Shown piece by piece: positions 2,335-48,272 of a DNA stretch of 64,000 nucleotides. This stretch comes from Candidatus Saccharimonadota bacterium (GTDB taxonomy: Bacteria > Patescibacteriota > Saccharimonadia > UBA4664). The notes below the pieces were generated by a model. That model had not been told where the DNA came from and searched no databases. It saw only the letters and a program-made list of their open reading frames with translations. Both the position numbers and the translations under genes were made by a program. Position 1 is the stretch's first letter. The number at the start of each line of letters is the position of its first letter. The stretch is from contig JACAFG010000005.1 of the NCBI GenBank assembly GCA_019352195.1, positions 92,287 to 156,286 on the forward strand. Reading direction: 5' to 3'.

Positions 2335-2381
2335 GCATAAGCAAAAAGCACAAAAACCGCTCAAAAGCTTGTAAAAATCAT

Positions 2382-2415
2382 TGACACATGCTCCAATTTA
2401 TGATACTTTGAACTA
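2382..2415 (+). promoter_or_regulatory. candidate sigma70-type promoter (TTGACA ... TATGAT/GATACT) in the intergenic region before the GC-rich island
   Basis: TTGACA at 2382-2387 with A/T-rich -10 candidates 15-18 nt downstream. Confidence 0.3.
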
Positions 2416-2602
2416 TCGCTCTGTTGGTGATTGGAAGATTTGTATAGCGAATACTCGCACTGGCAGCTGGACCTTGAAAAGTTGGACAGTCATGGGTCAT
2501 TAAATGAGGCCTGAATTTTAGGTCTTAAATACTGATCCGCGTTATACAAATCAACACACAATACCAACAGTCCATCCTTTCTACTCTCCCAAGGAGGCGG
2601 TC

Positions 2603-3175
2603 ATGACCGCAGATACAAGTTCCAGCGGTTCGACCGCAGGTTCATCTTCCCGCGAGCCGGAATACTTGCACCATGATGCAGTCGTCACCGTTGACGATTT
2701 CAACAATCTGGTGCGGACCTATCGCCGGCTCGGTGGTCTACTGAATCAACTTCAGGTCAAGGTCGATGGTCTTGCGCAGTCGGCTGCAACGCCTTCAGGC
2801 GAAACCGATGCGGACCGAATCGAGCGGAGTTTCGAAATCCTCAAAACGTCGCCCGAGTTTTTGGCGCGCGTTGGGGCTGCCGGAGACTATCTGGACGATT
2901 CCGCCTACTTCGATTCCGGAGTTTACATCACACGGAAGTTCTACTTGGCCGCGGACGCCTTGAAGGCGAACCCGCTTTTTGCGGGTATGTCGGCTCACGA
3001 GCGTGAAGAGATTGTGGCTGTTGCCCTGATCTCGAACGCCATCGAAGATGACACTGACAGGAACAAGAAGAAGCCCGCACGCTGTGAAGCGGTTGCGGCT
3101 GAAATCCTGGACACCATCGCTTTCAAGCTCCTTCCGGAGTACCTCAAAGCCGCCATCGCCCTCGGGCAAAAATAG
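2603..3175 (+). CDS. hypothetical protein (island-encoded, Ser/Thr-rich N-terminus)
   Basis: ORF with an AAGGAGG RBS 6 nt upstream. Lies in a GC-rich segment. No recognisable motif. Confidence 0.4.
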   Translation: MTADTSSSGSTAGSSSREPEYLHHDAVVTVDDFNNLVRTYRRLGGLLNQLQVKVDGLAQSAATPSGETDADRIERSFEILKTSPEFLARVGAAGDYLDDSAYFDSGVYITRKFYLAADALKANPLFAGMSAHEREEIVAVALISNAIEDDTDRNKKKPARCEAVAAEILDTIAFKLLPEYLKAAIALGQK

Positions 3176-3188
3176 ATAAGGAACGCTC

Positions 3189-4253
3189 ATGGCCCGCGCC
3201 TCTGCAGCCACGGTTGGCACAGTCGTGCCGATCGCCCCTCCCACTGGTACGCCGGCGGGAACGCCGACTGCCACCTACGAACTCCTACCGGTGAGCTTGC
3301 TCGCTGTGATGGCCGAAGAGGCCAACAAGCGTGAAGGTGATCTGGCAGGGCGTCCGGGTCGCGTCGAAACTGCCGTTCGCGGCAAGCGACGCAAGCCACG
3401 CCCGGTGAAAGACGCCCTTCCGGGCCAAATGACCGCGGCAGCTTGGTCTAGCGTCCTGTCGAGCGAGATCAGAAATCGCCGCGGGGACTACACGGTTTCC
3501 GACGCCGAGGCGCTCGAAATGGCCATGGTGGCCGCCCCGTCGATTCTCGGTGTGGCGGGGGACAGATCGGCGCTCGGCCCCACGGGGCCCAATGCGTCGG
3601 ACCGTAGCCCGCGCTTCAAGCAGGCGGTGGAACTCGGCATGGCCACACAGAAGCAACGTAAGAAGCTGCTGAATGGTCTGGAAGCCGACGATCATCCGCC
3701 GAAGTGGAAGTGGCTGTGGACACCGATCATGATGATCGTGTTCGCGGCTTTCCTCTACGCCTGCGCAGTTGCGGCAGGCGCGTCGGAGTTTTGGCGCGAT
3801 GTGATCGCGTTGCCCCTCATCGGAGCTATTGTCTGGTGGTTGGTCAACGTCTACAAGCGCCGCTCTGTCGTCACGCCGGCCGTGCTCTATGCGGCTGCCT
3901 GCGCGTTGGCGATCTTGGTGATCGTGCTGAATGCGATCTTGCATTCCGGGTCTCCAACCACCACCGGACCGTCCGCGCCGGCCGATACCGCCCCCATTTC
4001 GACGGGGGACTACAGCGGCGTCAACGCGGAAGACCTGAACTTGGTTCAGGGGATTCTCGTCCATCTGAGCCAGTGCACGGGGAAGTCCGTCAACCCCAGC
4101 TGCAAGATCTGGCTCCCGAGCGACTCCACGACCGGGGCGCTCGTACTCAAGCCGCTCAAGGGAAGCGATGTCGAAGCCTACTGCACGCGGGTGCAGTCGG
4201 CTAGCAGGTCTACCAACGGCGCGATCACGGTACCCGGTTTCTGCACTCCATAG
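3189..4253 (+). CDS. hypothetical membrane protein (3 predicted TM helices, Cys-containing C-terminal ectodomain)
   Basis: AAGGA RBS. Hydrophobic helices (WKWLWTPIMMIVFAAFLYACAVAAG ...). The antisense 730-aa ORF is a GC artefact. Confidence 0.4.
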   Translation: MARASAATVGTVVPIAPPTGTPAGTPTATYELLPVSLLAVMAEEANKREGDLAGRPGRVETAVRGKRRKPRPVKDALPGQMTAAAWSSVLSSEIRNRRGDYTVSDAEALEMAMVAAPSILGVAGDRSALGPTGPNASDRSPRFKQAVELGMATQKQRKKLLNGLEADDHPPKWKWLWTPIMMIVFAAFLYACAVAAGASEFWRDVIALPLIGAIVWWLVNVYKRRSVVTPAVLYAAACALAILVIVLNAILHSGSPTTTGPSAPADTAPISTGDYSGVNAEDLNLVQGILVHLSQCTGKSVNPSCKIWLPSDSTTGALVLKPLKGSDVEAYCTRVQSASRSTNGAITVPGFCTP

Positions 4254-4277
4254 AGCCCAAACTGTGGTGGGGCCCTC

Positions 4278-5369
4278 TTGCACAACGATGCAGTTTTGGC
4301 CGATCTGGAGAAGAGGCTCGCCGGCATGCCGTCGACGCTCGATTCCGGGACGTCTAAGAGCAAGCTCCCGACGTCCGTTCCGCCCACGCGGGCGAGCGCC
4401 GATAACTCCTTCGGGAAGTGGTTGGTGAGGTTGCTCCTGCTCATGGTCGTCGGCGGCATCGTCGCCCTCTTCATGGGCATGACGCCGCAGCCGCAGACCG
4501 CTGCTCCCACCGCCTCGGCCCCGAGGTCGACCGCCCCGGTCGCCGTCCACCACGGTTCGCTGTTGGCCCCGTTCGGCATCACGTCGGGCATCGTCAACGG
4601 CGTGACCGGGCTGACGCCCAAGGCCACGACCCCGGCGAAGCCGGCGGCCAAGCCGAGGGTGGTGACCAAGGCCAAGATCATCATCAAGCGCGCGGCCCCC
4701 AAGCCGATCGCCAAGGTGGTGATCAAGCCGGTGACCAAGCCCCAGGCGTTGGCACCCGCGGCCCGTCCGCAGAGCAACGCCAACACGGTGACCAGCACCG
4801 ACAACCAGACGGCCACCGGCAACTCGGTGGCGACGGTCGTCGCCCAGCCGGCCCCCAAGATGACGCCGGCCCCCGCGCCCGCGAACCAGATCGTCACGGT
4901 TCGCCAGCCGGACCCGTTCAACAAGGTGGTGACCATCGGTCAGCCGAGTCACAAGTCTGACCCGGCCCCCAAGGCCTCCGATCCGGCCCCCAAGGCGGAT
5001 CCCACCCCCAAGGCCGCTCCGGACCCGGTCGTCGTCGTCAAGATCCCGGCCCCCCAGCCGGCACCGGTCGCCAAGAACCCGGCCCCGCAGCCGGCACCGG
5101 GCCCCAAGCCGGCTCCGGTCGCCAAGAACCCGGCTCCGCAGCCGGCACCGGTCGCCCAGAACCCGGCCCCGCAGCCGGCACCGGCCCCCCAGCCGATCGC
5201 CAAGAACGGCAGCGGGGCGCAGACCAACACGCCGGCCGGCGTGACCGATCAGAACACCAAGAGCGCGGTCACTGGGCAGGCCGGCGTCGGCACCGTCGCC
5301 ACCAATTCCGGTGGTAAGGGCGTCACCGACCCGAACCCGACCAACCAGACCGTGACCTTCGGCGGATAG
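4278..5369 (+). CDS. membrane-anchored proline/alanine/lysine-rich repeat protein
   Basis: Single N-terminal TM helix. Then tandem PAPQPAPVAKNPAPQPAP repeats with an actinobacterial-style proline-rich composition. Confidence 0.4.
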   Translation: MHNDAVLADLEKRLAGMPSTLDSGTSKSKLPTSVPPTRASADNSFGKWLVRLLLLMVVGGIVALFMGMTPQPQTAAPTASAPRSTAPVAVHHGSLLAPFGITSGIVNGVTGLTPKATTPAKPAAKPRVVTKAKIIIKRAAPKPIAKVVIKPVTKPQALAPAARPQSNANTVTSTDNQTATGNSVATVVAQPAPKMTPAPAPANQIVTVRQPDPFNKVVTIGQPSHKSDPAPKASDPAPKADPTPKAAPDPVVVVKIPAPQPAPVAKNPAPQPAPGPKPAPVAKNPAPQPAPVAQNPAPQPAPAPQPIAKNGSGAQTNTPAGVTDQNTKSAVTGQAGVGTVATNSGGKGVTDPNPTNQTVTFGG

Positions 5370-5569
5370 TCGGGTCGATCTACTCAGAAAAACCAACTTC
5401 GGTTGGTGCAGTACCTTTTTGCAGTACGTAGTACCGCATTTCCCGCAGTAACCAGCAATACACGCGTGAACGTGCATTACCTTCTTGTTACTACGAGCGC
5501 ACCTCGATTTGTCGCCCCTTGCGATAAATCACCCCGTTATACCCAGAAGTAAACGGTCTGTTACATGAG

Positions 5570-5698
5570 ATCACGATACGGAGCCGCTTGGGCTAATCGT
5601 GATACGCAGCTTGTTGGATACGGAGCCATATGGGCTAATCTAACTAACTGCCACCCGCTAGGGGAGAGATAAGGAGCCGCAAGGGCTAATCTCTCCCC
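5570..5698 (+). repeat. array of three stem-loop units (5570-5603, 5613-5644, 5661-5698). Each has an 18-nt conserved loop A(C/A)GGAGCC-NNNN-GGGCTA and different but self-complementary flanking arms.
   Basis: Unit 1 arms ATCACGAT/ATCGTGAT. Unit 2 arms GTTGGAT/ATCTAAC (a G-U wobble on the + transcript). Unit 3 arms GGGGAGAGAT/ATCTCTCCCC. The cores are near-identical. Confidence 0.6.
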
Positions 5699-5867
5699 GG
5701 CGGAGGACCACTTTATTGGTAATGATCTATGACTGTCCGACTTTAAGAAGCCCACAGCGGTTCTTTTACAACTTGTGACATGGTTCGAATTTCTACATTT
5801 ACCAATGAAAACCAAGGCTTTTAGTCTGGTTTTAAAGCAAATAATAATCCTCACGAAGGAGGCTAAG

Positions 5868-7445
5868 ATGTCCATCAAGACATTTGCTCGTTCTCGTTGG
5901 GGTAAGGTTGCCGCGGCTCTCATCCTCATTGCCGGAATCACGATTCCAGTAACGCAGGTAATGGGCGCCACGGGCACCGATCCTAACTGTCCAAACGACG
6001 GCTACGGCCGTGACTGTAACGATAACTCGCTCATTTATGGTGGCGTTTACACCAAGACTGAGTTCCTTAACCAATTTGACGCTAACAAAGACCGCGTTGG
6101 CCACACTGACCTGCAAGCCATTTATGGCGCCCAGGGTGTGACGCACGCTAACTTTGCCTCGGCCGATACCGTCCCCGGTGTCGTTTACAAAAATGGTGAT
6201 GTTAAAGTTAACGGTGTTACCGTTGCTACCAACACCTGGTCGAGCGGCCGTCAGTACGAGGCTGGATCAATCGCCAAAGACGGCGTTTACTTCCGCCCCG
6301 AACAGGTTGCGTTTATTGCTGACAGCATTCCTGCTTGGATCAACATGAACGGCAAGACGTTTAACTACGCGGTTATCATGTCCTGTGGTAACACGGTTGT
6401 AAGTTCGGCGACGCCCTTTGGCCAGATCTACAAGCGCGTGACTGATGTTACGACAGACCCAACTCACAACTACGCAGCTGACACGAATGCCACTGCTATC
6501 ACCGTTAACCCGGGCGACACGGTTAAATACCAGGTTCGCATCGATAACAACGGTTACGGCGACATGACTAACACGGTTATGACTGACACGTTGCCAACCG
6601 GTGTCGCGCTCTCCAACGGCGGCGATGGCCACCTGGTTGCCAACTTTGGCACCGTTAAGGCCTCGAGCGCGGTTGAAGCCGACATTACCGTTAAGGTGAC
6701 AAAGACAACCGAAGGTTACATCGACAACGAAGCTTGCTTTACCGCCAGCAACGGCCAGTCGGGTTGTGACCACGCGGTTATCCACGTTGTCCCTAAAGCT
6801 ACGCCCACGCCGACTGCTACGCCTACGCCTAGCATGACGCCCACCCCAACACCAAAGCCCACAACGCCAACTCCGACGCCTACGGTCACTCCAACCCCAA
6901 CGCCAACTCCTGTAGAGGAGTTCAGCTGTGGTGGCTTGGCCATTACGCCTAAGAGCGTAGGTTCGCTCGAGTACACCTTTACGATCACTCCCGTCACGAA
7001 GAACGTTACCGTTACTGGTTACATCTACGTGGTAAAGAATGACAAAGGCGTCACGGTAGCTACGCTTACAAGCGGTGCCAATCACAATAGTGTTGGCTAC
7101 ACCTTCCCAAGCGCTGGTAATTACAGCGTAACGGGTCAGGTTGTAACGAACCGTGGTACCACGCCCGTAGTTGAGCTTTGCTCGGCTAATGTGACAGCTG
7201 GCCCAACGGTTACCCCAACTCCTACGCCCACCCCTGGTACACCTACGCCTACCCCAACCCCTTGTACTACGCCTGAAACCGGTACGACTGGTGAAGTTTG
7301 TGGAGCCTCAACTGGCCCTTCAACCTTGCCTGCAACCGGTGGTGCAGCCCTCGGTGGCATTGGCGGCATTGGTGCTATTGGGTACGCCACTCGTGCCTAC
7401 TTGCTCTCTAAGAAGTCACTTATTGACTCTCTGCGCAACAAGTAA
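5868..7445 (+). CDS. LPXTG-anchored cell-surface protein with a Pro/Thr-rich linker
   Basis: GAAGGAGG RBS. N-terminal signal peptide. PT repeats (PTPTATPTPSMTPTPTPKPTTPTPTPT). C-terminal LPATGG followed by a hydrophobic stretch and a KKS tail, the sortase sorting signal. Confidence 0.7.
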   Translation: MSIKTFARSRWGKVAAALILIAGITIPVTQVMGATGTDPNCPNDGYGRDCNDNSLIYGGVYTKTEFLNQFDANKDRVGHTDLQAIYGAQGVTHANFASADTVPGVVYKNGDVKVNGVTVATNTWSSGRQYEAGSIAKDGVYFRPEQVAFIADSIPAWINMNGKTFNYAVIMSCGNTVVSSATPFGQIYKRVTDVTTDPTHNYAADTNATAITVNPGDTVKYQVRIDNNGYGDMTNTVMTDTLPTGVALSNGGDGHLVANFGTVKASSAVEADITVKVTKTTEGYIDNEACFTASNGQSGCDHAVIHVVPKATPTPTATPTPSMTPTPTPKPTTPTPTPTVTPTPTPTPVEEFSCGGLAITPKSVGSLEYTFTITPVTKNVTVTGYIYVVKNDKGVTVATLTSGANHNSVGYTFPSAGNYSVTGQVVTNRGTTPVVELCSANVTAGPTVTPTPTPTPGTPTPTPTPCTTPETGTTGEVCGASTGPSTLPATGGAALGGIGGIGAIGYATRAYLLSKKSLIDSLRNK

Positions 7446-7665
7446 TTGCGGTTTACCAGCGGGGCCTTGGCCCCGTAACGGTAAATTGGCGCCCATCGCT
7501 TTTGGATCGTGATTTTCACGAACCATGTCACTCGTATCAAAGAGGCCCCTCGCGGGCCTCTTTGTCGTGGAATTATTATGGCTTTACAAAGCCACTTATG
7601 CTTGTATAACGAGGTAAAAAAGACTACAGTTATCCATTGATTTACTGAGTTCATAACGGAGAAGA

Positions 7666-8424
7666 ATGATGAAACAAATTTCACGTCTGGTAGCAGCTCT
7701 CGTCCTGGTGGCGCTGGTAAGCCCAGTAACGGCTTTGGCCTCCACGGGCGGACGCGACTGCGACGATAACGCCTTAGTATATTGTGGTGCCTATACCCAA
7801 AGTGAGCTCAACACAAAAATTGCTCAGGGTGATACCAAAAACTCGGCGGCCGATTTGCAGGCCATTTACTCAAGCCGCGGTATGACTACGGCGGCCATTA
7901 ACGCCACCGTTGATGGCACTGTGTCGCAAGATGGCCGCGTGTTTGTGAACGGACACGTGGTGGCGACCGACGCTAAGAGCGACGGGCGCCACAAGCAGCC
8001 AACCGGTTCAGTAGCGGACGGTTCGTTGTGGCTGACGCCGACGCAGGATTCGTTCCTGAGCACATCAATTCAGGCGTTCGTTTATATGAAGAGTGGCGTC
8101 TTTCAGTGGGCCATTCTTAAGTCTTGTGGTAACACGGTGGTAGCCACACCGCCAACGACTCCGACGCCCACCCCGACGGCGACACCAACACCCAAGCCGA
8201 CGCCCACGCTAACTCCCGCGACGACGGTAACGCCGACGCCTACCCCGGTAGCGCCAACTCCTACGCCAACCCCGACCCCAACGCCCACGCCGCTGCCATC
8301 AACTGGTCCCGAAGCGCCGATTGCCGGTGTTATGGGGCTCACGGGCATCGGTTACGCTGCGCGCAGCTACTACGCCAGTCGTAACAAGTTGCGCAACGCC
8401 CTGCGCAAGATTGTGGATAAATAG
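7666..8424 (+). CDS. LPXTG-anchored cell-surface protein, paralog of 5868..7445
   Basis: Shared N-terminal domain (DC(D/N)DN(A/S)L(V/I)Y ... DLQAIY ... SCGNTVV). PT linker. C-terminal LPSTG followed by a hydrophobic stretch and an RNK tail. Confidence 0.7.
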   Translation: MMKQISRLVAALVLVALVSPVTALASTGGRDCDDNALVYCGAYTQSELNTKIAQGDTKNSAADLQAIYSSRGMTTAAINATVDGTVSQDGRVFVNGHVVATDAKSDGRHKQPTGSVADGSLWLTPTQDSFLSTSIQAFVYMKSGVFQWAILKSCGNTVVATPPTTPTPTPTATPTPKPTPTLTPATTVTPTPTPVAPTPTPTPTPTPTPLPSTGPEAPIAGVMGLTGIGYAARSYYASRNKLRNALRKIVDK

Positions 8425-8471
8425 CCAAGATTGGCGTTCGTTTTTCGTTCGGTTTGATAAATAACATCAAA

Positions 8472-8500
8472 AAAAGGCTTAACTGAGCCTTTTTTTGATG
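8472..8500. terminator. bidirectional intrinsic terminator (AAAAAAAGGCT-TAACTG-AGCCTTTTTTT)
   Basis: GC stem flanked by A-run and T-run, downstream of the surface-protein gene. Confidence 0.6.
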
Positions 8501-16771: not shown

Positions 16772-17136
16772 GGCTCAAGCTGAAATTGGAGCTCCGACTT
16801 CCCTGTTTCTAGTTCGGTTTTTGTCTGGCCCATATCCGAACAAAATTATAGAGTGCACCACGGGGAAAATTCCCCGAGTAAATAAGAGCTAGTAGGGGGC
16901 AAAAGTGCGAAAAATGAGAAAATTCAAATTCAGCTTAAAAACCGGCTAGAACGGGCTTTTAGCTCATATGTGGCTTTGGCGTCGCAAAATATACATTGTG
17001 CGACATTGAGTCTATTGATGAGAAGATGACTACTACTACCCCTTTCGTATTCCATAATATCCTTATGCCAAGCCAATAAGCGCATTCTGAGTTATTTTGT
17101 GCAGTGATCTTGCTTCTCGTCGGTCTGTCTTTTGTC

Positions 17137-17189
17137 TTAATAGCCTAAGTCCCCCGCTCTAAATTAGAGCGGGGGACTTAGGCTATTAA
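17137..17189. terminator. perfect ~26-bp-arm palindrome (CTTAATAGCCTAAGTCCCCCGCTCTAA-a-TTAGAGCGGGGGACTTAGGCTATTAAG) between convergent operons
   Basis: Seen directly in the sequence. No flanking T-runs, so it could also be a protein-binding site. Confidence 0.5.
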
Positions 17190-17301
17190 GTTGGCGTGGT
17201 TTGGGGCGAGAGTACTCGGTAACTATGGGACGCGCTTCTACGCGAGCTGGGCGGGCGGTATAAGCCCAAAGTGTAAGACAGGGTTACACGGGGCGCTGGG
17301 G

Positions 17302-40893: not shown

Positions 40894-41808
40894 CTAGAGT
40901 TTGAGATATCGGCTCATAGCTAAAATTGATGAGACGGCGCCAATAATAATTCCGAGCAGCAGTTCACCGCCTAAGATCACAAACGGATAGGATTGGAAGA
41001 AGCTGATGGTAGAACCAAAGTCGATATAACTAGCCACCTTGGGCGCACTACTCAAGAGAACTAGATACGAGAAGGTTACGGCAACGATGGCCGCGATAAT
41101 TCCGTAAAGGGCCGCCTCAAAAATAAACGGTCCGCGAATAAACCATTTGGTGGCACCGACAAGCTTCATGATTTCGATTTCATCGCGCCGGGTAAAAATG
41201 GCCATTCTGATGGTGTTGAAAATGATCAGTGTCGAAATGACGACAAAGACAATACTGGCTGCTAAGCCCGCAGTTTTGAAGAAGTTAGCAAAGTGAACAA
41301 TACGGTCGATGGTTTCTTTGCGGCCGCCCGTGTAGCTTGGTGGGGCGGTGGGATCGAGCAGACTTTGGTTGGCCTGCTGACTCACGACTGCTTCGATAGC
41401 GTCGAGATGTTTGGGATCGATGGCTTTTACCTCAATTGAAGACGGCAAAACATTGCCAGCTGTATCGAGCGCCTGGATGAGCGATGGCTTATCTTTGTTT
41501 TGGTTCTTATAGTTAGCAACTGCCTGATCAGGGCTGACATACATGAGGCTCGCGACGTTACCGCTGCTTTTGAGGGCGGCTTCGAAAGCAGCCACCTGAT
41601 CGGGCGTCGTGTTATTGTTGAGGAAAATCGAGACGTCAATTTTATCGGTCACCCCTTTGATGGTAGCGGTAAGGGCGAGGCTTGAGATAAACGACACAAT
41701 GACGATGATAAGGGTCACCGTCATAACGGCGGTAGCAGCAGTTGAGAGCCAGGCGTTACGCAGAAAGTTGCGGATGCCGCCGTGAAGTATTCGCCAAAAT
41801 TGCAGCAT
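40894..41808 (-). CDS. ftsX: cell division ABC transporter permease FtsX
   Basis: Four-TM FtsX topology with a large extracytoplasmic loop. Overlaps the ftsE stop. Confidence 0.85.
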   Translation of the reverse strand: MLQFWRILHGGIRNFLRNAWLSTAATAVMTVTLIIVIVSFISSLALTATIKGVTDKIDVSIFLNNNTTPDQVAAFEAALKSSGNVASLMYVSPDQAVANYKNQNKDKPSLIQALDTAGNVLPSSIEVKAIDPKHLDAIEAVVSQQANQSLLDPTAPPSYTGGRKETIDRIVHFANFFKTAGLAASIVFVVISTLIIFNTIRMAIFTRRDEIEIMKLVGATKWFIRGPFIFEAALYGIIAAIVAVTFSYLVLLSSAPKVASYIDFGSTISFFQSYPFVILGGELLLGIIIGAVSSILAMSRYLKL

Positions 41809-42551
41809 TAGTTTTGTGCCTCAACCCCAGTGGCAATGCCCTTGGTAGCGCCCTTGAGGGTCGTTGGGTTTTCTAAGGTGTAGCGTCCCTGTTCATCATC
41901 GCGGATGATGCGGCCGCGGTTGATCGTGATAACACGTCGTTTGAGGGCGTTTACAATTTCTTTGTTGTGCGTAGTGAGCAGCACGGTGGTACCAAAACGG
42001 TTAATTTTGAGCAAAAGCTCGATAATTTGCCAGGCATTGCCGGGGTCGAGGTTACCGGTTGGTTCGTCGGCGATAAGAATTTTGGGCTGGCGAATGAGCG
42101 CCCGGGCAATGGCGACACGCTGACGCTCACCACCTGACAGTTCGTGCGGGTACATGTTTTGCTTGGCCGATAGGCCAACGAGGGTGAGCATCTTGGGTAC
42201 AGCGCGCTTAATTTCGCGCTGGCGGGCCCCCGAAACTTCGAGCGCAAAGGCGACATTTTCACCTACGCGGCGGTTGGGTAGGAGTTTAAAATCTTGAAAC
42301 ACCACCCCAATGCGACGGCGCACGAGCGGCACGTCTTTCGCGGTAATCGTGTCGTAATCAAGTCCACCGACAATGATTTTGCCTGAACTATGCGTTTCTT
42401 CGCGCGTCAGAAGCTTGATGAGCGTACTCTTGCCGGCGCCACTGGAACCCACAATAGTCACAAATTCTTTAGGCTCAATATGAAGATTGAGACCCGATAA
42501 CGCCGTTTGGCCGTTCGGATATACTTTGGTAACTCGATCGAATAGAATCAT
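41808..42551 (-). CDS. ftsE: cell division ABC transporter ATP-binding protein FtsE
   Basis: Walker A GSSGAGKST. ABC signature LSGGERQRVAIARAL. Walker B ILIADEPT. About 247 aa. Confidence 0.9.
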   Translation of the reverse strand: MILFDRVTKVYPNGQTALSGLNLHIEPKEFVTIVGSSGAGKSTLIKLLTREETHSSGKIIVGGLDYDTITAKDVPLVRRRIGVVFQDFKLLPNRRVGENVAFALEVSGARQREIKRAVPKMLTLVGLSAKQNMYPHELSGGERQRVAIARALIRQPKILIADEPTGNLDPGNAWQIIELLLKINRFGTTVLLTTHNKEIVNALKRRVITINRGRIIRDDEQGRYTLENPTTLKGATKGIATGVEAQN

Positions 42552-42606: not shown

Positions 42607-42645
42607 TGATTGAGGACGATCCTGGTGACAAGATCGTCCTCAATT
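42607..42645. promoter_or_regulatory. perfect 13-bp inverted repeat ATTGAGGACGATC-(10 nt)-GATCGTCCTCAAT at the junction between the ftsE upstream region and GC-rich island 5
   Basis: Seen directly. Lies about 60 bp upstream of the ftsE start codon. Confidence 0.4.
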
Positions 42646-43040
42646 GTCGTGAGAGACGGGCGATGATTTTGCGGCTTATTTCATTAGCCGCGGGGTGGCC
42701 TCAACTGGCTGGGACGGGCCCGGTTGGGCGGCGGACCGATGCTGGCCATGGCTTCGAGGGCACGGTTACCTCGATGGTTGCGTTGGGCGCCGGTGTGTCG
42801 AGTAATCGATTTCCGGCCGGCTCGGCCAAATAAGGTAGGCCGTCGGAGTTCTGGCCGGCGATGCCGGCGAAGGTCAGATGACGCAAGAAGCTGCCGACTT
42901 CGACGGCGAACTGGCTGGCGGTCGTGTCAGTCCCCTCGTCCCCAATTGCTACCAGAAACTTCGTCCGGCATTTGCGGCAGCGCCGATCGACTGATGGCAC
43001 ACGTATGCCGCACGCCCCACACGTGTAGGGACCGCCAACA

Positions 43041-43156
43041 CGAAATTAAGCGCGCTGTGCCCAAGATGCTCACCCTCGTTGGCCTATCGGCCAAGCAAAA
43101 CATGTACCCGCACGAACTGTCAGGTGGTGAGCGTCAGCGTGTCGCCATTGCCCGGG
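43041..43156 (+). repeat. 116-bp inverted duplicate (115/116 identical) of an internal ftsE segment (42101-42216, encoding EIKRAVPKMLTLVGLSAKQNMYPHELSGGERQRVAIAR)
   Basis: Direct sequence comparison. The single difference is a synonymous T/C (GTA vs GTG, Val). Confidence 0.85.
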
Positions 43157-43200
43157 GCAATTATTATCCCAAACATGTCATACTAGTTAAAGGTAGCCCA

Positions 43201-43569
43201 ATGAGCGAATACCCAAACCATATACGAGCGCAGTTTGATGAGGCGGTAACGTCGAGTCCCGACGCGCTGCTGTGTATTCTCAACCCGGCGGGCCAGCTGC
43301 TCGCGGTCTCGCCTTCAGTCGAGCCGATTCATGGCTATCTCCCGTCTGAAGTGGTTGGGACTAACTTTTCCATCTACTTTGATGCCGATGACGTAAATCA
43401 TCTAAGGTTAGTTATCCAAGATTGTATTCTAACCGGGCAATCCATCGAAGCAAGCCGCCGCGTTAAGCACAAAACTGGCGCCTACCGGCGAATGCGTGGG
43501 GCTGCCACCAAACTTGAGGATGATGCTACAGGTGATGCCTATATTCTCTCAATTGCTCGGCCGGTTTAG
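43201..43569 (+). CDS. small stand-alone PAS-domain protein
   Basis: About 122 aa. A PAS-like fold is inferred from ... LCILNPAGQLLAVSPSVEPIHGYLPSEVVGTNFSIYFDADD ... The ORF track fuses it to upstream junk (42724..). Confidence 0.45.
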   Translation: MSEYPNHIRAQFDEAVTSSPDALLCILNPAGQLLAVSPSVEPIHGYLPSEVVGTNFSIYFDADDVNHLRLVIQDCILTGQSIEASRRVKHKTGAYRRMRGAATKLEDDATGDAYILSIARPV

Positions 43570-43787: not shown

Positions 43788-44462
43788 ATGTCCAGTTCCA
43801 AGCCCAGCGTGAACCCCGATGCCAAGCCCAAGCGGAAGCGTCGCGGTCTCGTAGCCCTCTTCTGTTCCGTCTTGCTCTGCGGCGGCCTCTTCGTGTTCCT
43901 CGGTTAGGCCAGCACCGGTGCCTACTTCAGCGACACCAAGGCCGGCACCGTCTCCGGTACCGTCGGATCCATCAAGATCACGGGTACCGGCGGCTCGGGC
44001 GCCGACAATCTCTCGGTCAGCTTCGATCGGCTGCTGCCGGGTGAGAACCAGTCGGTGACGACGTCATGGACGAACACCGGCCTCAACAAAGAAGACGTCT
44101 TCGTGGTGTTCTCGAACCCTGACGCGCTGCACGCGCTGAACAACCTCGGGACCTACGGTGAGGTCCACATCGTGGGCAACAACGGACCGGTCTTCGACAG
44201 CGCCAACCTCAACGACAATTCGGCGTCATGTGTCACGTTCTCGCCGTCGGGATGTTGGCCGGTCGCCAAGAGCTACAAGATCGGCACCAACATCACCCCC
44301 GGAGGCACCGGATCCTGGACGTTCACCTTCGGGTACGCCTCCAAGCTGTCGACTCAGTCCGCCGCCGGCGGTGGCGATTGGAACTCCTACCCCTTGGGTG
44401 GGCCGACCAACTCCGGTCTTCCGTACCAGCTGGTCGCGGTCCAGCCGGGCCAGACCCCGTAG
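43788..44462 (+). pseudogene. TasA/camelysin-family secreted protein with a SipW-cognate-class signal peptide, interrupted by a single in-frame TAG at 43905-43907
   Basis: AAAGGAG RBS. MSSSKPSVNPDAKPKRKRRGLVALFCSVLLCGGLFVFLG-TAG-ASTGAYFSDTKAGTVSG ... (the AxFSD(T)E motif). Same frame throughout. Confidence 0.6.
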
Positions 44463-44520
44463 TACCACTTAGGTGGCGCGGGCAACGTCTGTCCGCGCCA
44501 CCTAGGTCCTACCACAAGGA

Positions 44521-45042
44521 GTGGACATAGTGCCAAAATGGCTCAGTATCACCGTCAGTGCCCTCGTCTTTGCTGCCATGGTGGTAGTAAGCCTGTCGCT
44601 TCTGATGTCACACCACCTCTATGTGGTGCGCACGGGCTCAATGGGAAACACCTACCCGCCCAAGACGCTCGTCGTCGTCAAGGTTGGTGAGTACCATGTG
44701 GGACAAGTTATCTCGTTCCGCGAGCATGGCGATATCACCACCCACCGCCTCCTCGGCTTCAACGCCGACGGTACGCTCATCACCAAAGGCGACGCCAACG
44801 ACACTCCCGATCCCTGGACTCTCCACCGCTCCGACATTATCGGTGGCGTCACTGGCTCGGTTCGCGGCCTCGGCTACTGGTTCATCTATGCGAAGAACCC
44901 CTACGGCCTCGGCTCCATGGTTTGCTTAGTCCTCGCGATCTGGCTGTCCATCAAACTTTACCGCGAGATGACTCCTGAGACCGACGCAGAGTCCGACCCG
45001 CCCGACAATTCGCTCGAGGATCTCATCCTGAGCTCCTCCTGA
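44521..45042 (+). CDS. sipW: SipW-type (archaeal/ER-type, S26B) signal peptidase I
   Basis: N-terminal TM helix. VVRTGSMGNTYPPKTLVVV, then VGQVISFREHGDITTHRL and ITKGDANDTPDPW, compared from memory with B. subtilis SipW (SGSSMEP ... VTHRVIEV ... ITKGDNN ... D.W). C-terminal TM helix. GTG start with an AAGGAG RBS. Confidence 0.75.
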   Translation: MDIVPKWLSITVSALVFAAMVVVSLSLLMSHHLYVVRTGSMGNTYPPKTLVVVKVGEYHVGQVISFREHGDITTHRLLGFNADGTLITKGDANDTPDPWTLHRSDIIGGVTGSVRGLGYWFIYAKNPYGLGSMVCLVLAIWLSIKLYREMTPETDAESDPPDNSLEDLILSSS

Positions 45043-47174: not shown

Positions 47175-48272
47175 CTAATCGTCGCTACCGGAGCCTATTT
47201 GGCCGTTGAGATAAGCTTCAATAAACAAATCGAGATTGCCGTCTAAGACGCCGGCGGCATCATTCGTTTCGGCCCCGGTGCGGACATCTTTGACCTTAGT
47301 GTAGGGATGGAGCACATAATTGCGGATTTGTTGGCCCCACTCGGCGGCTTTATCGGCACCGCGCAATTGGCCAAGTTCGGCGGCCTGTTCCGCTTCGAGG
47401 CGCGCCGCTAAACGGGCTTTCAGCACGGCCATGGCTTTGTCTTTGTTTTGTAGCTGTGAGCGCTCGTTTTGAATCGCCACCACCGTATTGGTCGGTATGT
47501 GGGTGATGCGGACAGCTGAATCAGTCGTGTTAACGCTTTGGCCGCCTTTGCCGCTCGAGCGATACACATCGATCCGCAAGTCTTTGGGGTCGAGTTCGAT
47601 ATCGGCGGTGCTGCGGTCGAGTTGAGGTAGTACCTCAACCAGCGCAAATGAAGTTTGGCGTAAATCGGCCGAATTAAATGGGCTTTGGCGAACTAGACGA
47701 TGAACGCCGGCTTCGCCTTTGAGTTTGCCAAAGGCAAACGGCCCGGAGATTTCAATAGTGGCGCTCTTAATTCCCGCTTCCTCACCAGGCGAGGTTGATA
47801 GAATTTCGGCGCTAAAATTCTGCGAGGTCGCCCATCGCACGTACATGCGTTGGAGCATTTCGGTCCAGTCTTGCGCGTCGGTACCGCCGGTACCGGCATG
47901 GAGCTCGATAATGGCGCCGGTCCGATCATGCGGGCCTGATAGCTTGAGCTCAAATTCGCGTGCTTCATAGTCGGTTTTGAGGCGCGAGTAGGTAGCTTCG
48001 GCGGTTTCGGCGTAGCCCGGGATATCGGTGACGCCAAATAATTCATCACTGACTTGGCTTTCGAGCGAGCGCCAACTTTCGACATGTTTCGTGAGTTCGG
48101 CGAGGCGCTGCGAAGTTTTAGCCGCGGCTTGAGGATCATTCCAAAAATCGGGCGCTTGGGTGGCCGCGCTGAGCTTGGCGATCTCGGTAGCGTCGGCAGG
48201 TATACCAAGTTTAGCGATGGCGGATTGAATTCGCTCCAACAGATCAGTGTAGCGGTGAATAAGGTCTTGCAT
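47175..48272 (-). CDS. prfB: peptide chain release factor 2 (uninterrupted ORF; no programmed +1 frameshift site)
   Basis: SPF tripeptide motif and GGQ (SSGKGGQSVNTTDSAVRITH). 365 aa in one frame. Confidence 0.88.
   Translation of the reverse strand: MQDLIHRYTDLLERIQSAIAKLGIPADATEIAKLSAATQAPDFWNDPQAAAKTSQRLAELTKHVESWRSLESQVSDELFGVTDIPGYAETAEATYSRLKTDYEAREFELKLSGPHDRTGAIIELHAGTGGTDAQDWTEMLQRMYVRWATSQNFSAEILSTSPGEEAGIKSATIEISGPFAFGKLKGEAGVHRLVRQSPFNSADLRQTSFALVEVLPQLDRSTADIELDPKDLRIDVYRSSGKGGQSVNTTDSAVRITHIPTNTVVAIQNERSQLQNKDKAMAVLKARLAARLEAEQAAELGQLRGADKAAEWGQQIRNYVLHPYTKVKDVRTGAETNDAAGVLDGNLDLFIEAYLNGQIGSGSDD

What the first reader, a model, noticed from the sequence alone, without database searches (positions are those of the whole stretch)
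5570..5698. Three tandem stem-loops with a conserved GGA-containing loop and covarying stems upstream of the LPXTG surface-protein genes
Each unit presents the same 18-nt core A(C/A)GGAGCC-N4-GGGCUA between arms that are perfectly self-complementary within a unit but unrelated between units. Unit 2 closes with a G-U pair only if transcribed from the + strand. Compensatory variation with a conserved loop is the signature of a selected RNA (or cruciform) structure, not of a mobile repeat. The loops expose AUACGGAG/AUAAGGAG, which resembles the CsrA/RsmA GGA-in-loop binding consensus (RUACARGGAUGU) and also a Shine-Dalgarno sequence. The units could be a protein-titrating or translational-control element for the downstream surface-protein gene (start 5868), or the 3' end of the island transcript.
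Basis: seen in the sequence. Interest (0 to 1): 0.7.

Follow-up and report, generated by a model that had tools for sequence, protein, structure and literature searches.

The report
Hairpin array inside an mRNA-bracketing helix
The three hairpins are real and are almost certainly RNA, but they are a local, lineage-specific array sitting just inside a conserved 25-base-pair helix that ties the two ends of an operon transcript together in Saccharibacteria, and they are not a conserved CsrA-type regulatory motif.

Summary
Three adjacent hairpins (5570-5603, 5606-5651, 5655-5703) share a 24-nt module, GATAMGGAGCC-N4-GGGCTAATC, on unrelated self-complementary arms. The GGA is not in an apical loop. 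It lies in an asymmetric internal loop and an inner 4-bp stem, and the true loops vary.

The module is not in Rfam. It has no further copy in the 64 kb and no real match in the viral, genome or metagenome scans. It is also not conserved: the orthologue of unit 3 in relative L022 keeps identical arms but has a different top without GGA, and two other L022 hairpins share a different 18-nt core. Other relatives have one to five unrelated hairpins at this position.

The conserved feature is the context. A ~25-bp helix pairs the operon's 5' UTR (2478-2502) with 5720-5744, 16 nt after unit 3. It is present in six Saccharibacteria lineages, with nine pairs changed on both sides, 16 G-U cells and no A-C cells, so it is + strand RNA.

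Best reading: a locally amplified 3'-UTR/intercistronic hairpin array that protects or insulates a transcript whose ends are paired, in the manner of hbs, icaR or RNase III processing stems. The function is inferred, not shown. The CsrA reading is not supported.

The parts
5570..5603 (+). Hairpin unit 1. Outer stem 5570-5577/5596-5603, internal loop ACGG 5578-5581 opposite A5595, inner stem AGCC 5582-5585/GGCU 5591-5594, loop GCUUG 5586-5590.
5606..5651 (+). Hairpin unit 2. Basal stem GCAG 5606-5609/CUGC 5648-5651, a 3x3 internal loop, outer stem 5613-5619/5638-5644 with the G5616-U5641 wobble, the same apical module, loop AUAUG.
5655..5703 (+). Hairpin unit 3, the 'proximal hairpin'. Basal stem CCGCU 5655-5659/GGCGG 5699-5703, bulged A5660, outer stem 5661-5670/5689-5698, apical module with AAGG, loop GCAAG. 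Its arms are identical in L022 14591-14627 but the apical module differs.
2478..2502 (+). 5' arm of long-range helix A, in the 5' UTR of the operon.
   Evidence: (I1)
5720..5744 (+). 3' arm of long-range helix A. It starts 16 nt after unit 3.
   Evidence: (I1)
2381..2409 (+). Promoter-like element conserved in six lineages: TTGACA 2381-2386, a 17-nt spacer ending in TGA, then TACTTT 2404-2409 (an extended -10 of the TGnTAnnnT type). This is inferred. The consensus scanner did not call it.
2603..5369 (+). Three fast-evolving ORFs enclosed by helix A: 2603-3175; 3189-4253, a membrane protein; and 4278-5369, a Pro-rich membrane protein whose start is uncertain. None has a Pfam family.
5775..5787 (+). 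5' arm of helix B candidate, GTGACATGGTTCG. It is invariant in the window, L012 and L022.
7519..7531 (+). 3' arm of helix B candidate, CGAACCATGTCAC. It lies just upstream of the terminator-like hairpin at 7538-7564.
5868..7445 (+). DUF11 surface-protein gene with an LPATG sorting signal. Its Shine-Dalgarno AAGGAGG is at 5856-5862.

Best explanation
The three units are RNA hairpins in the untranslated stretch between the last ORF of a three-gene operon and the first LPXTG surface-protein gene of a Candidatus Saccharibacteria genome.

They are transcribed on the + strand within a long transcript that starts at a conserved promoter-like site near 2381-2409. In that RNA the 5' UTR (2478-2502) pairs with 5720-5744 to give a ~25-bp helix that brackets the whole operon. 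Every related lineage carries at least one strong hairpin immediately 5' of the 3' arm. The window carries a locally amplified array of three. Their tops have been made alike by local duplication or gene conversion, not by long-term selection on that sequence.

The most likely role is structural:
- The hairpins form stable secondary structure that shields the 3' side of the operon RNA from 3'-to-5' exonucleases.
- They insulate the 3' arm so that the long-range helix can form.
- The helix itself either protects both RNA ends or is a double-strand-specific nuclease site (RNase III type) that separates the operon RNA from the downstream surface-protein mRNA.

Shown: the structures, the strand, the helix and its covariation, and the lack of conservation of the module. 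Inferred: the promoter, co-transcription with the DUF11 gene, nuclease processing and the stabilising role.
For: **The hairpins**
- They are real and far better than chance.

**Helix A**
- It is present in six lineages: the window, L012, L022, L024, L023 and L025.
- The neighbouring M16 peptidase is only 46-64% identical to the window's in the four lineages where this was measured (L022, L024, L023, L025).
- 94.9% of cells are paired, and nine pairs change on both sides.
- No shuffle out of 500 reaches the observed percentage paired or covariation score. One shuffle reaches the count of pairs changed on both sides.
- Slid controls give 23-42% paired.
- One G-U pair is invariant in all six.
- In five of these lineages (L025 had not yet been fetched), helix columns 2-24 hold 16 G-U cells and no A-C cells, so the helix is RNA on the + strand.
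- The helix brackets one, two or three ORFs, depending on the lineage.

**The position is conserved, not the sequence**
- A strong hairpin or hairpins always precede the 3' arm: one in L023, one long one in L024 and in L025, about five in L012, and four in L022.
- Fold z-scores are -5.6 to -6.9.

**The module is not conserved**
- The unit 3 orthologue has identical arms and a changed top.
- L022 hairpins H1 and H2 share a different 18-nt core, which occurs only at that locus.

**Transcript context**
- No hairpin has a U-tract, whereas the genome does use canonical U-tract terminators. Read-through is therefore expected.
- No sigma-70-like promoter is found between 5300 and 5950.

**Precedents for 5'/3'-UTR pairing that controls RNase access**
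- hbs, 14 bp (PMC5737220).
- icaR with RNase III (PMC3868564).
Against: - There are no transcript data, so the promoter, the read-through and any cleavage are all inferred.
- The three modules are 88-100% identical over 24 nt while their arms are unrelated. That could equally reflect a sequence-specific partner in this lineage.
- In L022 the hairpin region folds better on the - strand (-86.0 against -76.1 kcal/mol), so the strand argument for the hairpins themselves rests mainly on helix A.
- No RNase III gene was seen in the sequence held.
- A generic stabiliser role is hard to falsify from sequence alone.
Confidence: 0.45

Rival explanations
1. The shared apical module is a sequence-specific binding site for a protein of this lineage, and three sites form a platform. 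The candidate partners are an L7Ae/YlxQ-type k-turn binder, CsrA, or a product of the fast-evolving operon itself. The module would then control processing, stability or translation of the flanking genes. It reads as a 3-nt bulge (ACG or AAG), then a possible G-A pair (G5581 with A5595), then A-U. That resembles the rare Kt-23 type of kink turn.
For: - The 24 nt are kept at 88-100% identity in three units whose arms are unrelated.
- The asymmetric 4+1 internal loop is invariant except for one C/A change.
- The pattern matches 'three-nucleotide bulge, then G-A, then A-U', as described for Kt-23 (PMC2790904).
- In L022 two hairpins likewise share a private core. This would fit a partner that co-evolves within each lineage.
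- csrA is reported as expressed in some ultra-small groundwater prokaryotes (PMC9938205).
Against: - The module is absent from all relatives. The orthologous hairpin has lost the GGA and the 3-nt bulge geometry while keeping its arms.
- The canonical k-turn A-G pair at the second position is missing.
- The GGA is half-paired, not in a loop.
- There is no Rfam match.
- No CsrA, L7Ae, YlxQ or YbxF homologue is seen in the window, although this is a weak test.
- There are no further sites in the 64 kb.
Confidence: 0.2
2. The units are DNA-level quasi-palindromes with no sequence-specific RNA role. A small self-complementary core was duplicated locally. The arms were then made complementary by fold-back or template-switch replication errors (quasi-palindrome correction), so the 'covariation' is mutational and not selected.
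For: - The arms of units 1 and 3 are perfect (8/8 and 10/10), and the whole unit is one long imperfect palindrome.
- Both the window and L022 show private cores on unrelated arms at this locus only. This looks like local mutational turnover.
- The hairpin number varies from one to five between lineages.
- The L022 hairpins fold better on the - strand.
Against: - Unit 2 and the base of unit 3 carry G-U pairs, which are mismatches in DNA.
- A hairpin is kept at this exact position, next to the 3' arm, in six lineages in spite of complete sequence turnover. That argues for selection on structure.
- The arms of unit 3 are 100% conserved between the window and L022 while the neighbouring spacer diverges.
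Confidence: 0.15
3. The hairpins are part of the leader of the downstream DUF11 LPXTG gene and control its translation or transcription. Possible modes are Shine-Dalgarno-like decoys (AAGGAG or ACGGAG), start-Gly-stop mini-ORFs, or an attenuator or antiterminator.
For: - Each module contains GGAG. In units 1 and 2 this is followed, 4 nt later, by UUG-GGC-UAA or AUG-GGC-UAA.
- No promoter is detected between the hairpins and the gene, so the hairpins probably lie on the same primary transcript as the DUF11 gene.
Against: - Unit 3 has AAG in place of a start codon.
- The GGAG is partly paired.
- The true Shine-Dalgarno is 150 nt downstream of unit 3, beyond two conserved blocks.
- In L023, L024 and L025 a TATGAT or TACGAT -10-like element lies after the 3' arm. 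This suggests that the surface gene is a separate unit downstream of the helix.
- There are no U-tracts of the kind needed for attenuation.
Confidence: 0.1

Closest known systems
5'/3'-UTR base pairing within one bacterial mRNA: B. subtilis hbs (14 bp, modulates RNase Y access; PMC5737220) and S. aureus icaR (3' UTR pairs with the SD region and creates an RNase III substrate; PMC3868564)
   Same: Complementary segments in the 5' and 3' untranslated regions of the same transcript. Helix B here (13 bp, next to the terminator) is very similar in size and placement to the hbs pairing. Helix A is long enough (about 25 bp) to be a double-strand nuclease substrate, as in icaR.
   Different: - Helix A spans 1-3 kb and one to three ORFs.
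- It does not cover the Shine-Dalgarno.
- It is conserved with covariation across a clade of candidate-phyla-radiation (CPR) bacteria.
- It comes with an array of hairpins just inside the 3' arm.
- No nuclease or expression data exist for it.
RNase III processing stems that bracket rRNAs in rRNA operons and the early mRNAs of phage T7 (established knowledge)
   Same: A long helix formed by sequences that flank a functional RNA segment. Two such bracketed segments lie in tandem on one putative precursor.
   Different: The bracketed RNA is a protein-coding operon. Cleavage has not been shown. No rnc gene was identified in the sequence available.
REP/BIME-type intercistronic hairpins that stabilise upstream mRNA against 3' exonucleases, such as E. 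coli malE-malF, and the Rhodobacter puf intercistronic hairpins (established knowledge)
   Same: Tandem imperfect palindromes without U-tracts, lying in a transcribed intercistronic or 3' region, with a presumed role as exonuclease barriers.
   Different: This is not a dispersed family. There are three copies at one locus and none elsewhere in 64 kb or in the public collections scanned. There is no GTAG head and no evidence of a RAYT transposase.
CsrB/RsmZ-type CsrA-titrating RNAs and CsrA-bound leaders
   Same: Several GGA-containing hairpins lie in tandem, with spacings (42 and 51 nt) that a CsrA dimer could bridge.
   Different: The GGA lies in an internal loop and inner stem, not in an apical loop. 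It does not overlap the Shine-Dalgarno. The orthologue has lost the GGA. No csrA gene was seen.
Kink turn of the Kt-23 type (3-nt bulge, G-A, then A-U; PMC2790904)
   Same: The sequence pattern of the internal loop is: outer stem, ACG or AAG, then G opposite A, then A-U.
   Different: Kt-23 has non-Watson-Crick pairs at the next two positions, whereas here they are G-C and C-G. The geometry has not been tested. The pattern is not kept in the L022 orthologue.

Membership tests
CsrA/RsmA-binding RNA | GGA presented in the apical loop of short hairpins or in single-stranded RNA (consensus A(N)GGA; SELEX RUACARGGAUGU) | tested here: not met
   The predicted fold puts the two G's in a 4-nt internal loop and the A in an inner 4-bp stem. 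The apical loops are GCUUG, AUAUG and GCAAG.
CsrA/RsmA-binding RNA | Binding motif conserved in orthologous RNAs | tested here: not met
   The L022 orthologue of unit 3 reads AAGCCUGCAAGGGCCGA, with no GGA. There is no motif in L012, L023, L024 or L025.
CsrA/RsmA-binding RNA | A csrA gene in the genome | tested here: inconclusive
The rest of the genome was not available.
CsrA/RsmA-binding RNA | For leaders: one site overlaps the Shine-Dalgarno of the regulated gene | tested here: not met
   The Shine-Dalgarno is at 5856-5862, which is 150 nt after unit 3.
Any Rfam family | A covariance-model match | tested here: not met
   No match with E up to 10 in 4500-7000, and no match at gathering score in the whole window.
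Intrinsic terminator | A G+C-rich hairpin followed directly by a U-tract | tested here: not met
   No terminator was called on the + strand in 5300-5950. Canonical U-tract terminators do exist elsewhere, for example at 8465-8500.
REP/BIME dispersed palindromes | Many copies dispersed in intergenic regions of the genome | tested here: not met
   The covariance model finds only the three units in 64 kb. The exact-pattern scans of the genome, metagenome and viral collections return only chance hits without complementary flanks.
REP/BIME dispersed palindromes | Transcribed imperfect palindromes in intercistronic or 3' regions | tested here: met
   The units lie between ORF3 (stop at 5369) and the DUF11 gene (start at 5868), inside a transcript implied by helix A.
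Kink turn | A 3-nt bulge followed by tandem G-A and A-G pairs (PMC2790904, PMC5061560) | tested here: not met
   The bulge ACG or AAG and a possible G-A pair are present, but the second pair is A-U in all three units. This matches only the rare Kt-23 exception. The geometry cannot be tested here.
5'/3'-UTR long-range pairing (hbs/icaR type); applies to the context (helix A), not to the hairpins | Complementarity between the 5' and 3' untranslated regions of one transcript, supported by compensatory change | tested here: met
   Six lineages, 94.9% paired, nine pairs changed on both sides, 16 G-U cells and no A-C cells in the five lineages counted.
5'/3'-UTR long-range pairing (hbs/icaR type) | The pairing alters RNase cleavage or translation | not testable with these tools
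   This needs RNA end-mapping or in vitro cleavage.
CRISPR array | Identical repeats of 23-50 nt separated by unrelated spacers of similar length, usually with cas genes | tested here: not met
   The 'spacers' are 18 and 27 nt and are self-complementary across each repeat. No cas genes flank the array.
Type III toxin-antitoxin antitoxin repeats (ToxI-like) | Near-identical tandem repeats directly upstream of an endoribonuclease toxin gene | tested here: not met
   The units differ completely in their arms. The downstream gene is a DUF11 LPXTG surface protein.
Mobile element with terminal inverted repeats, or invertible DNA segment (alternative reading of helix A) | DNA-level inverted repeats with a transposase or recombinase; variable location or orientation | tested here: not met
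   The flanks (M16 peptidase ... mraZ) and the orientation are the same in six lineages. The enclosed ORFs have no Pfam family. All mismatches are G-U on the + strand.

The most novel reading that the evidence does not exclude
The apical module is a functional recognition element private to this lineage, and it is actively copied between unrelated stems. The evidence is that the window has one module on three different stems, while L022 has another module on two different stems at the same locus. Under this reading the array is a three-site platform for a co-evolving protein or RNA partner. That partner might be encoded by the fast-evolving operon that helix A brackets. It would set the processing or stability of the operon RNA and so the output of the LPXTG surface-protein genes of an episymbiotic CPR bacterium.
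Probability: 0.12. Interest if true: 0.7.

Novelty: new variant of a known kind. Interest (0 to 1): 0.45.

Why it matters
On their own the hairpins are a minor, strain-level curiosity. Following them uncovered a well-supported RNA structure in Saccharibacteria, a group with almost no experimental RNA biology. It is a ~25-bp helix that joins the two ends of a 1-3 kb envelope or surface-protein operon transcript. It is conserved while the enclosed genes turn over, and it always has a hairpin cap just inside its 3' arm.

If the helix is a processing or protection device, it would be a clean natural case of end-to-end pairing governing a whole bacterial operon. Known examples (hbs, icaR) involve single short mRNAs.

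The case also carries a caution. Covarying stems around a shared core within one genome can arise from local copying, and they do not by themselves show a conserved motif.

Tried and rejected
- **Rfam.** No family matched.
- **Dispersed repeat or mobile element.** The exact core pattern was scanned in viral contigs (0 hits), genome contigs (6 hits) and metagenome contigs (4 hits). Every hit is a single copy in an unrelated organism without complementary flanks, so these are chance matches. The window's own genome is apparently not in those collections.
- **Covariance model R1.** It was built from the three units. It finds no further copy in the window or in any related locus. The only exception is a weak 20-bit hit to the unit 3 orthologue, driven by the arms.
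- **CsrA, L7Ae, YlxQ, YbxF and RNase III genes.** None was found in the sequence held.
- **A minus-strand gene.** The 730-aa ORF at 3285-5477 (-) is an Arg/Gly-rich antisense artefact and is not open in L012.
- **A third bracketing helix around mraZ** (8493-8508/8994-9009, 15 of 16 complementary). It is not conserved in L012, L022 or L023, so it is a chance match.
- **Intrinsic terminators, a CRISPR-like array, ToxI-like repeats and tandem riboswitches.** All were rejected on anatomy (see the membership table).
- **Mini-ORFs** (UUG or AUG, then GGC, then UAA). Unit 3 has AAG, and the L022 orthologue lacks the frame.
- **Similarity of the module to the DUF11 ribosome-binding site** (AAGGAG...GCUAA). 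It is not kept in L022, so it is treated as coincidence.
- **Homologues of ORF1.** The search returned only the protein itself.
- **The contig of the 53%-identical surface-protein homologue (P0003).** No DNA could be fetched for it.

Full report
**Source and setting**

The window comes from a Candidatus Saccharibacteria (TM7, candidate phyla radiation) genome. Its DUF11 protein and PBP2 cluster with NCBI proteins of that name. Contig JABBYD010000014.1 of GCA_017884045.1 (locus L011) is identical across the region of interest.

The finding lies in a 498-nt non-coding stretch, 5370-5867.
- Upstream are three fast-evolving ORFs with no Pfam family: 2603-3175, 3189-4253 and 4278-5369.
- Downstream are a DUF11 protein ending in LPATG (5868-7445) and a paralogue ending in LPSTG (7666-8424).
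- The whole block sits between an M16 peptidase gene and mraZ-rsmH-ftsI-mraY.
- The long minus-strand ORF 3285-5477 is an Arg/Gly-rich antisense artefact and is not open in a relative.

**Check of the observation**

The three units exist as described.
- The shared block is 24 nt, GAT-A(C/A)GGAGCC-N4-GGGCTA-ATC, at 5575-5598, 5617-5640 and 5668-5691.
- The arms are 8, 7 and 10 bp and unrelated between units.
- Five of the eight aligned outer pairs differ on both sides, and 97% of cells pair. With slid partners only 31-50% pair.
- The + strand RNA folds at -69.9 kcal/mol (z = -6.0). The - strand gives z = -4.35.
- G5616-U5641 in unit 2 and U5659-G5699 at the base of unit 3 are pairs only on the + strand.

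One correction is needed. The conserved part is not an exposed loop. It folds as a 4-nt/1-nt asymmetric internal loop, an invariant inner stem AGCC/GGCU, and a variable pentaloop. Only the two G's of GGA are unpaired.

**Does the motif recur?**

It does not.
- Rfam gives nothing, even at E up to 10.
- The pattern ATAMGGAGCCNNNNGGGCTAAT has 0 hits in viral contigs, 6 in genome contigs and 4 in metagenome contigs. All are single copies in unrelated organisms and lack complementary flanks.
- A covariance model of the three units finds nothing else in the 64 kb or in any locus of related Saccharibacteria.
- The only exception is a 20-bit hit in L022, against 48-51 bits for the units themselves.

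**Relatives**

Syntenic loci were reached through the DUF11 protein and the M16 peptidase.
- **L022.** The hairpin next to the conserved downstream block is the orthologue of unit 3. Its basal and outer arms are identical to the window's (CCGC...GGGGAGAGAT / ATCTCTCCCC...GGCGG). Its top reads AAGCCTGCAAGGGCCGA instead of AAGGAGCCGCAAGGGCTA. It has no GGA and a 2x3 loop instead of the 4x1 loop.
- **L022, further hairpins.** Two more hairpins (H1, H2) have unrelated arms and share a different 18-nt core, GCTCTGAACTCAACCGAC. That core occurs only there.
- **L012.** It has about five small hairpins and no shared core.
- **L023, L024 and L025.** Each has one strong hairpin.

The position and the presence of stable hairpins are therefore conserved, with fold z-scores of -5.6 to -6.9. 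The module is not conserved. Between species the arms of unit 3 are more conserved than its core.

**The conserved context**

A repeat search across the island found a 25-nt inverted pair, 2478-2502 and 5720-5744. The second arm starts 16 nt after unit 3, and the first arm lies in the 5' UTR of the operon. The pair is present in six lineages.

Evidence that the helix is real (alignment A6):
- 94.9% of cells pair, and nine pairs change on both sides.
- No shuffle out of 500 reaches the observed percentage paired or covariation score, and one reaches the count of pairs changed on both sides.
- Slid controls give 23-42% paired.
- One G-U pair is invariant in all six.

Evidence that it is + strand RNA:
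- In five of the lineages, counted before L025 was fetched, helix columns 2-24 hold 16 G-U cells in nine columns and no A-C cell.
- This rules out a purely DNA-level inverted repeat such as transposon ends or an invertible segment.
- The constant flanks and orientation, and the absence of any transposase or recombinase family, agree.

Further points:
- The helix brackets one ORF (L025), two (L023, L024) or three (window, L012, L022).
- Upstream of the 5' arm all six lineages keep TTGAC(A)-N14-TGA-TAnnnT, which reads as an extended -10 promoter (inferred, not called by the simple scanner).
- No promoter-like site and no U-tract terminator lie between the ORF3 stop and the DUF11 start, although the genome uses canonical U-tract terminators elsewhere.
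- The hairpins are therefore very probably transcribed on the + strand within an RNA that runs from about 2415 to at least 5744.

**A second bracket**

GTGACATGGTTCG (5775-5787) and its exact complement (7519-7531) flank the DUF11 gene. The downstream arm sits just before a terminator-like hairpin at 7538-7564, which shows compensatory changes in L012. Both arms are invariant in the window, L012 and L022 and absent in L023, L024 and L025. There is no covariation, so RNA pairing here is plausible but not shown. In size and placement it resembles the 14-bp 5'/3'-UTR pairing of B. subtilis hbs (PMC5737220).

**Mechanism**

The best-supported reading is that the three units are a locally amplified version of the hairpin cap that every lineage keeps just inside the 3' arm of helix A. 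By analogy, the hairpins most likely block 3' exonucleases and keep the 3' arm free for the long-range pairing. The analogues are REP-type and puf-type intercistronic hairpins, rRNA processing stems (established knowledge) and icaR (PMC3868564). The 25-bp helix would protect both ends or be cut by an RNase III-type enzyme, releasing the downstream surface-protein mRNA. Only the structures, the strand and the covariation are shown. The nuclease steps are inferred. I put this at 0.45.

**Rivals**

- A lineage-specific protein-binding module (0.2). The internal loop reads as a 3-nt bulge, then G-A, then A-U, like the exceptional Kt-23 kink turn (PMC2790904), but the pattern is not kept in the orthologue. 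CsrA fits poorly.
- DNA-level quasi-palindromes produced by fold-back errors (0.15). The G-U pairs and the positional conservation argue against this.
- A leader element of the DUF11 gene (0.1). The GGAG, and the UUG or AUG then GGC then UAA frames in units 1 and 2, are suggestive. Unit 3 and the orthologue do not fit.

**What remains unexplained**

It is not clear why one module sits on three unrelated stems here while another sits on two unrelated stems in L022. It is also not clear why the L022 hairpins fold better on the minus strand.

**Verdict**

The hairpins are of modest interest. The bracketing helix they led to is the more notable feature. It is a new variant of known 5'/3'-end pairing, found in an under-studied phylum.

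Noticed in passing
window 5775-5787 and 7519-7531 (also L012 5914-5926/7520-7532, and the equivalent sites in L022): A perfect 13-nt inverted pair, GTGACATGGTTCG/CGAACCATGTCAC, flanks the DUF11 LPXTG gene. It is invariant in three lineages while the flanks diverge, and the 3' copy sits just before a terminator-like hairpin (7538-7564). It may be a second 5'/3'-UTR helix or a protein site. There is no covariation to decide between these.
   Followed up: partly
window 7452-7492; L012 7455-7490; L022 16240-16280; L023 13722-13760; L025 11258-11295; L024 7605-7637: A conserved 3'-UTR element lies right after the surface-protein ORFs in all lineages. It consists of the hairpin CGGGGCC-UYG-GCCCCG followed by (A/G)ACG(U)GUAAAUUGG(C/U)(G/A)C. 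It has no Rfam match.
   Followed up: no
L022 14455-14492 and 14506-14550: Two hairpins with unrelated arms share an 18-nt core, GCTCTGAACTCAACCGAC, which is found nowhere else in the sequence held. This is the same 'private core on different stems' pattern as in the window but with a different core, and it folds better on the minus strand.
   Followed up: partly
window 17136-17190: A 55-nt perfect palindrome (27-nt arms, 1 nt between them) lies in a 530-nt gene-free stretch between convergent genes (16771 and 17302). It has no U-tracts.
   Followed up: no
window 4253-5570 compared with L011 4278-5703; DUF11 gene: The near-identical assembly GCA_017884045.1 carries 108 extra nt within the Pro-rich ORF3 region, and its DUF11 protein is 522 aa instead of 525 aa. 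This is strain-level repeat-number variation in the low-complexity linkers, while the hairpin region is identical.
   Followed up: partly
window 5410-5450; 44459-44466; 47627-47634; L023 11450-11458 and 11490-11498: Short GUACC-containing motifs recur. GCAGTAC/GTAGTACC occurs three times just after the ORF3 stop, and GGTAGGTACCTG occurs twice in the L023 5' UTR. GTAGTACC occurs four times in the window against 0.9 expected. One copy lies beside a long hairpin (about 44468-44510) upstream of the gene that starts at 44521.
   Followed up: no
window 42609-42644: A near-perfect 16-nt inverted repeat (ATTGAGGACGATCCTG/CAAGATCGTCCTCAAT) lies between divergent genes (41808-42551 on the minus strand and 42724-43569 on the plus strand). 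It looks like an operator.
   Followed up: no
window 2503-2530 and the equivalent positions in L020, L022 and L024: A small hairpin also follows the 5' arm of helix A directly in several lineages, for example AGGCCU-GAAUUUU-AGGUCU in the window. The helix would then sit at the base of a junction with a hairpin on each side.
   Followed up: no
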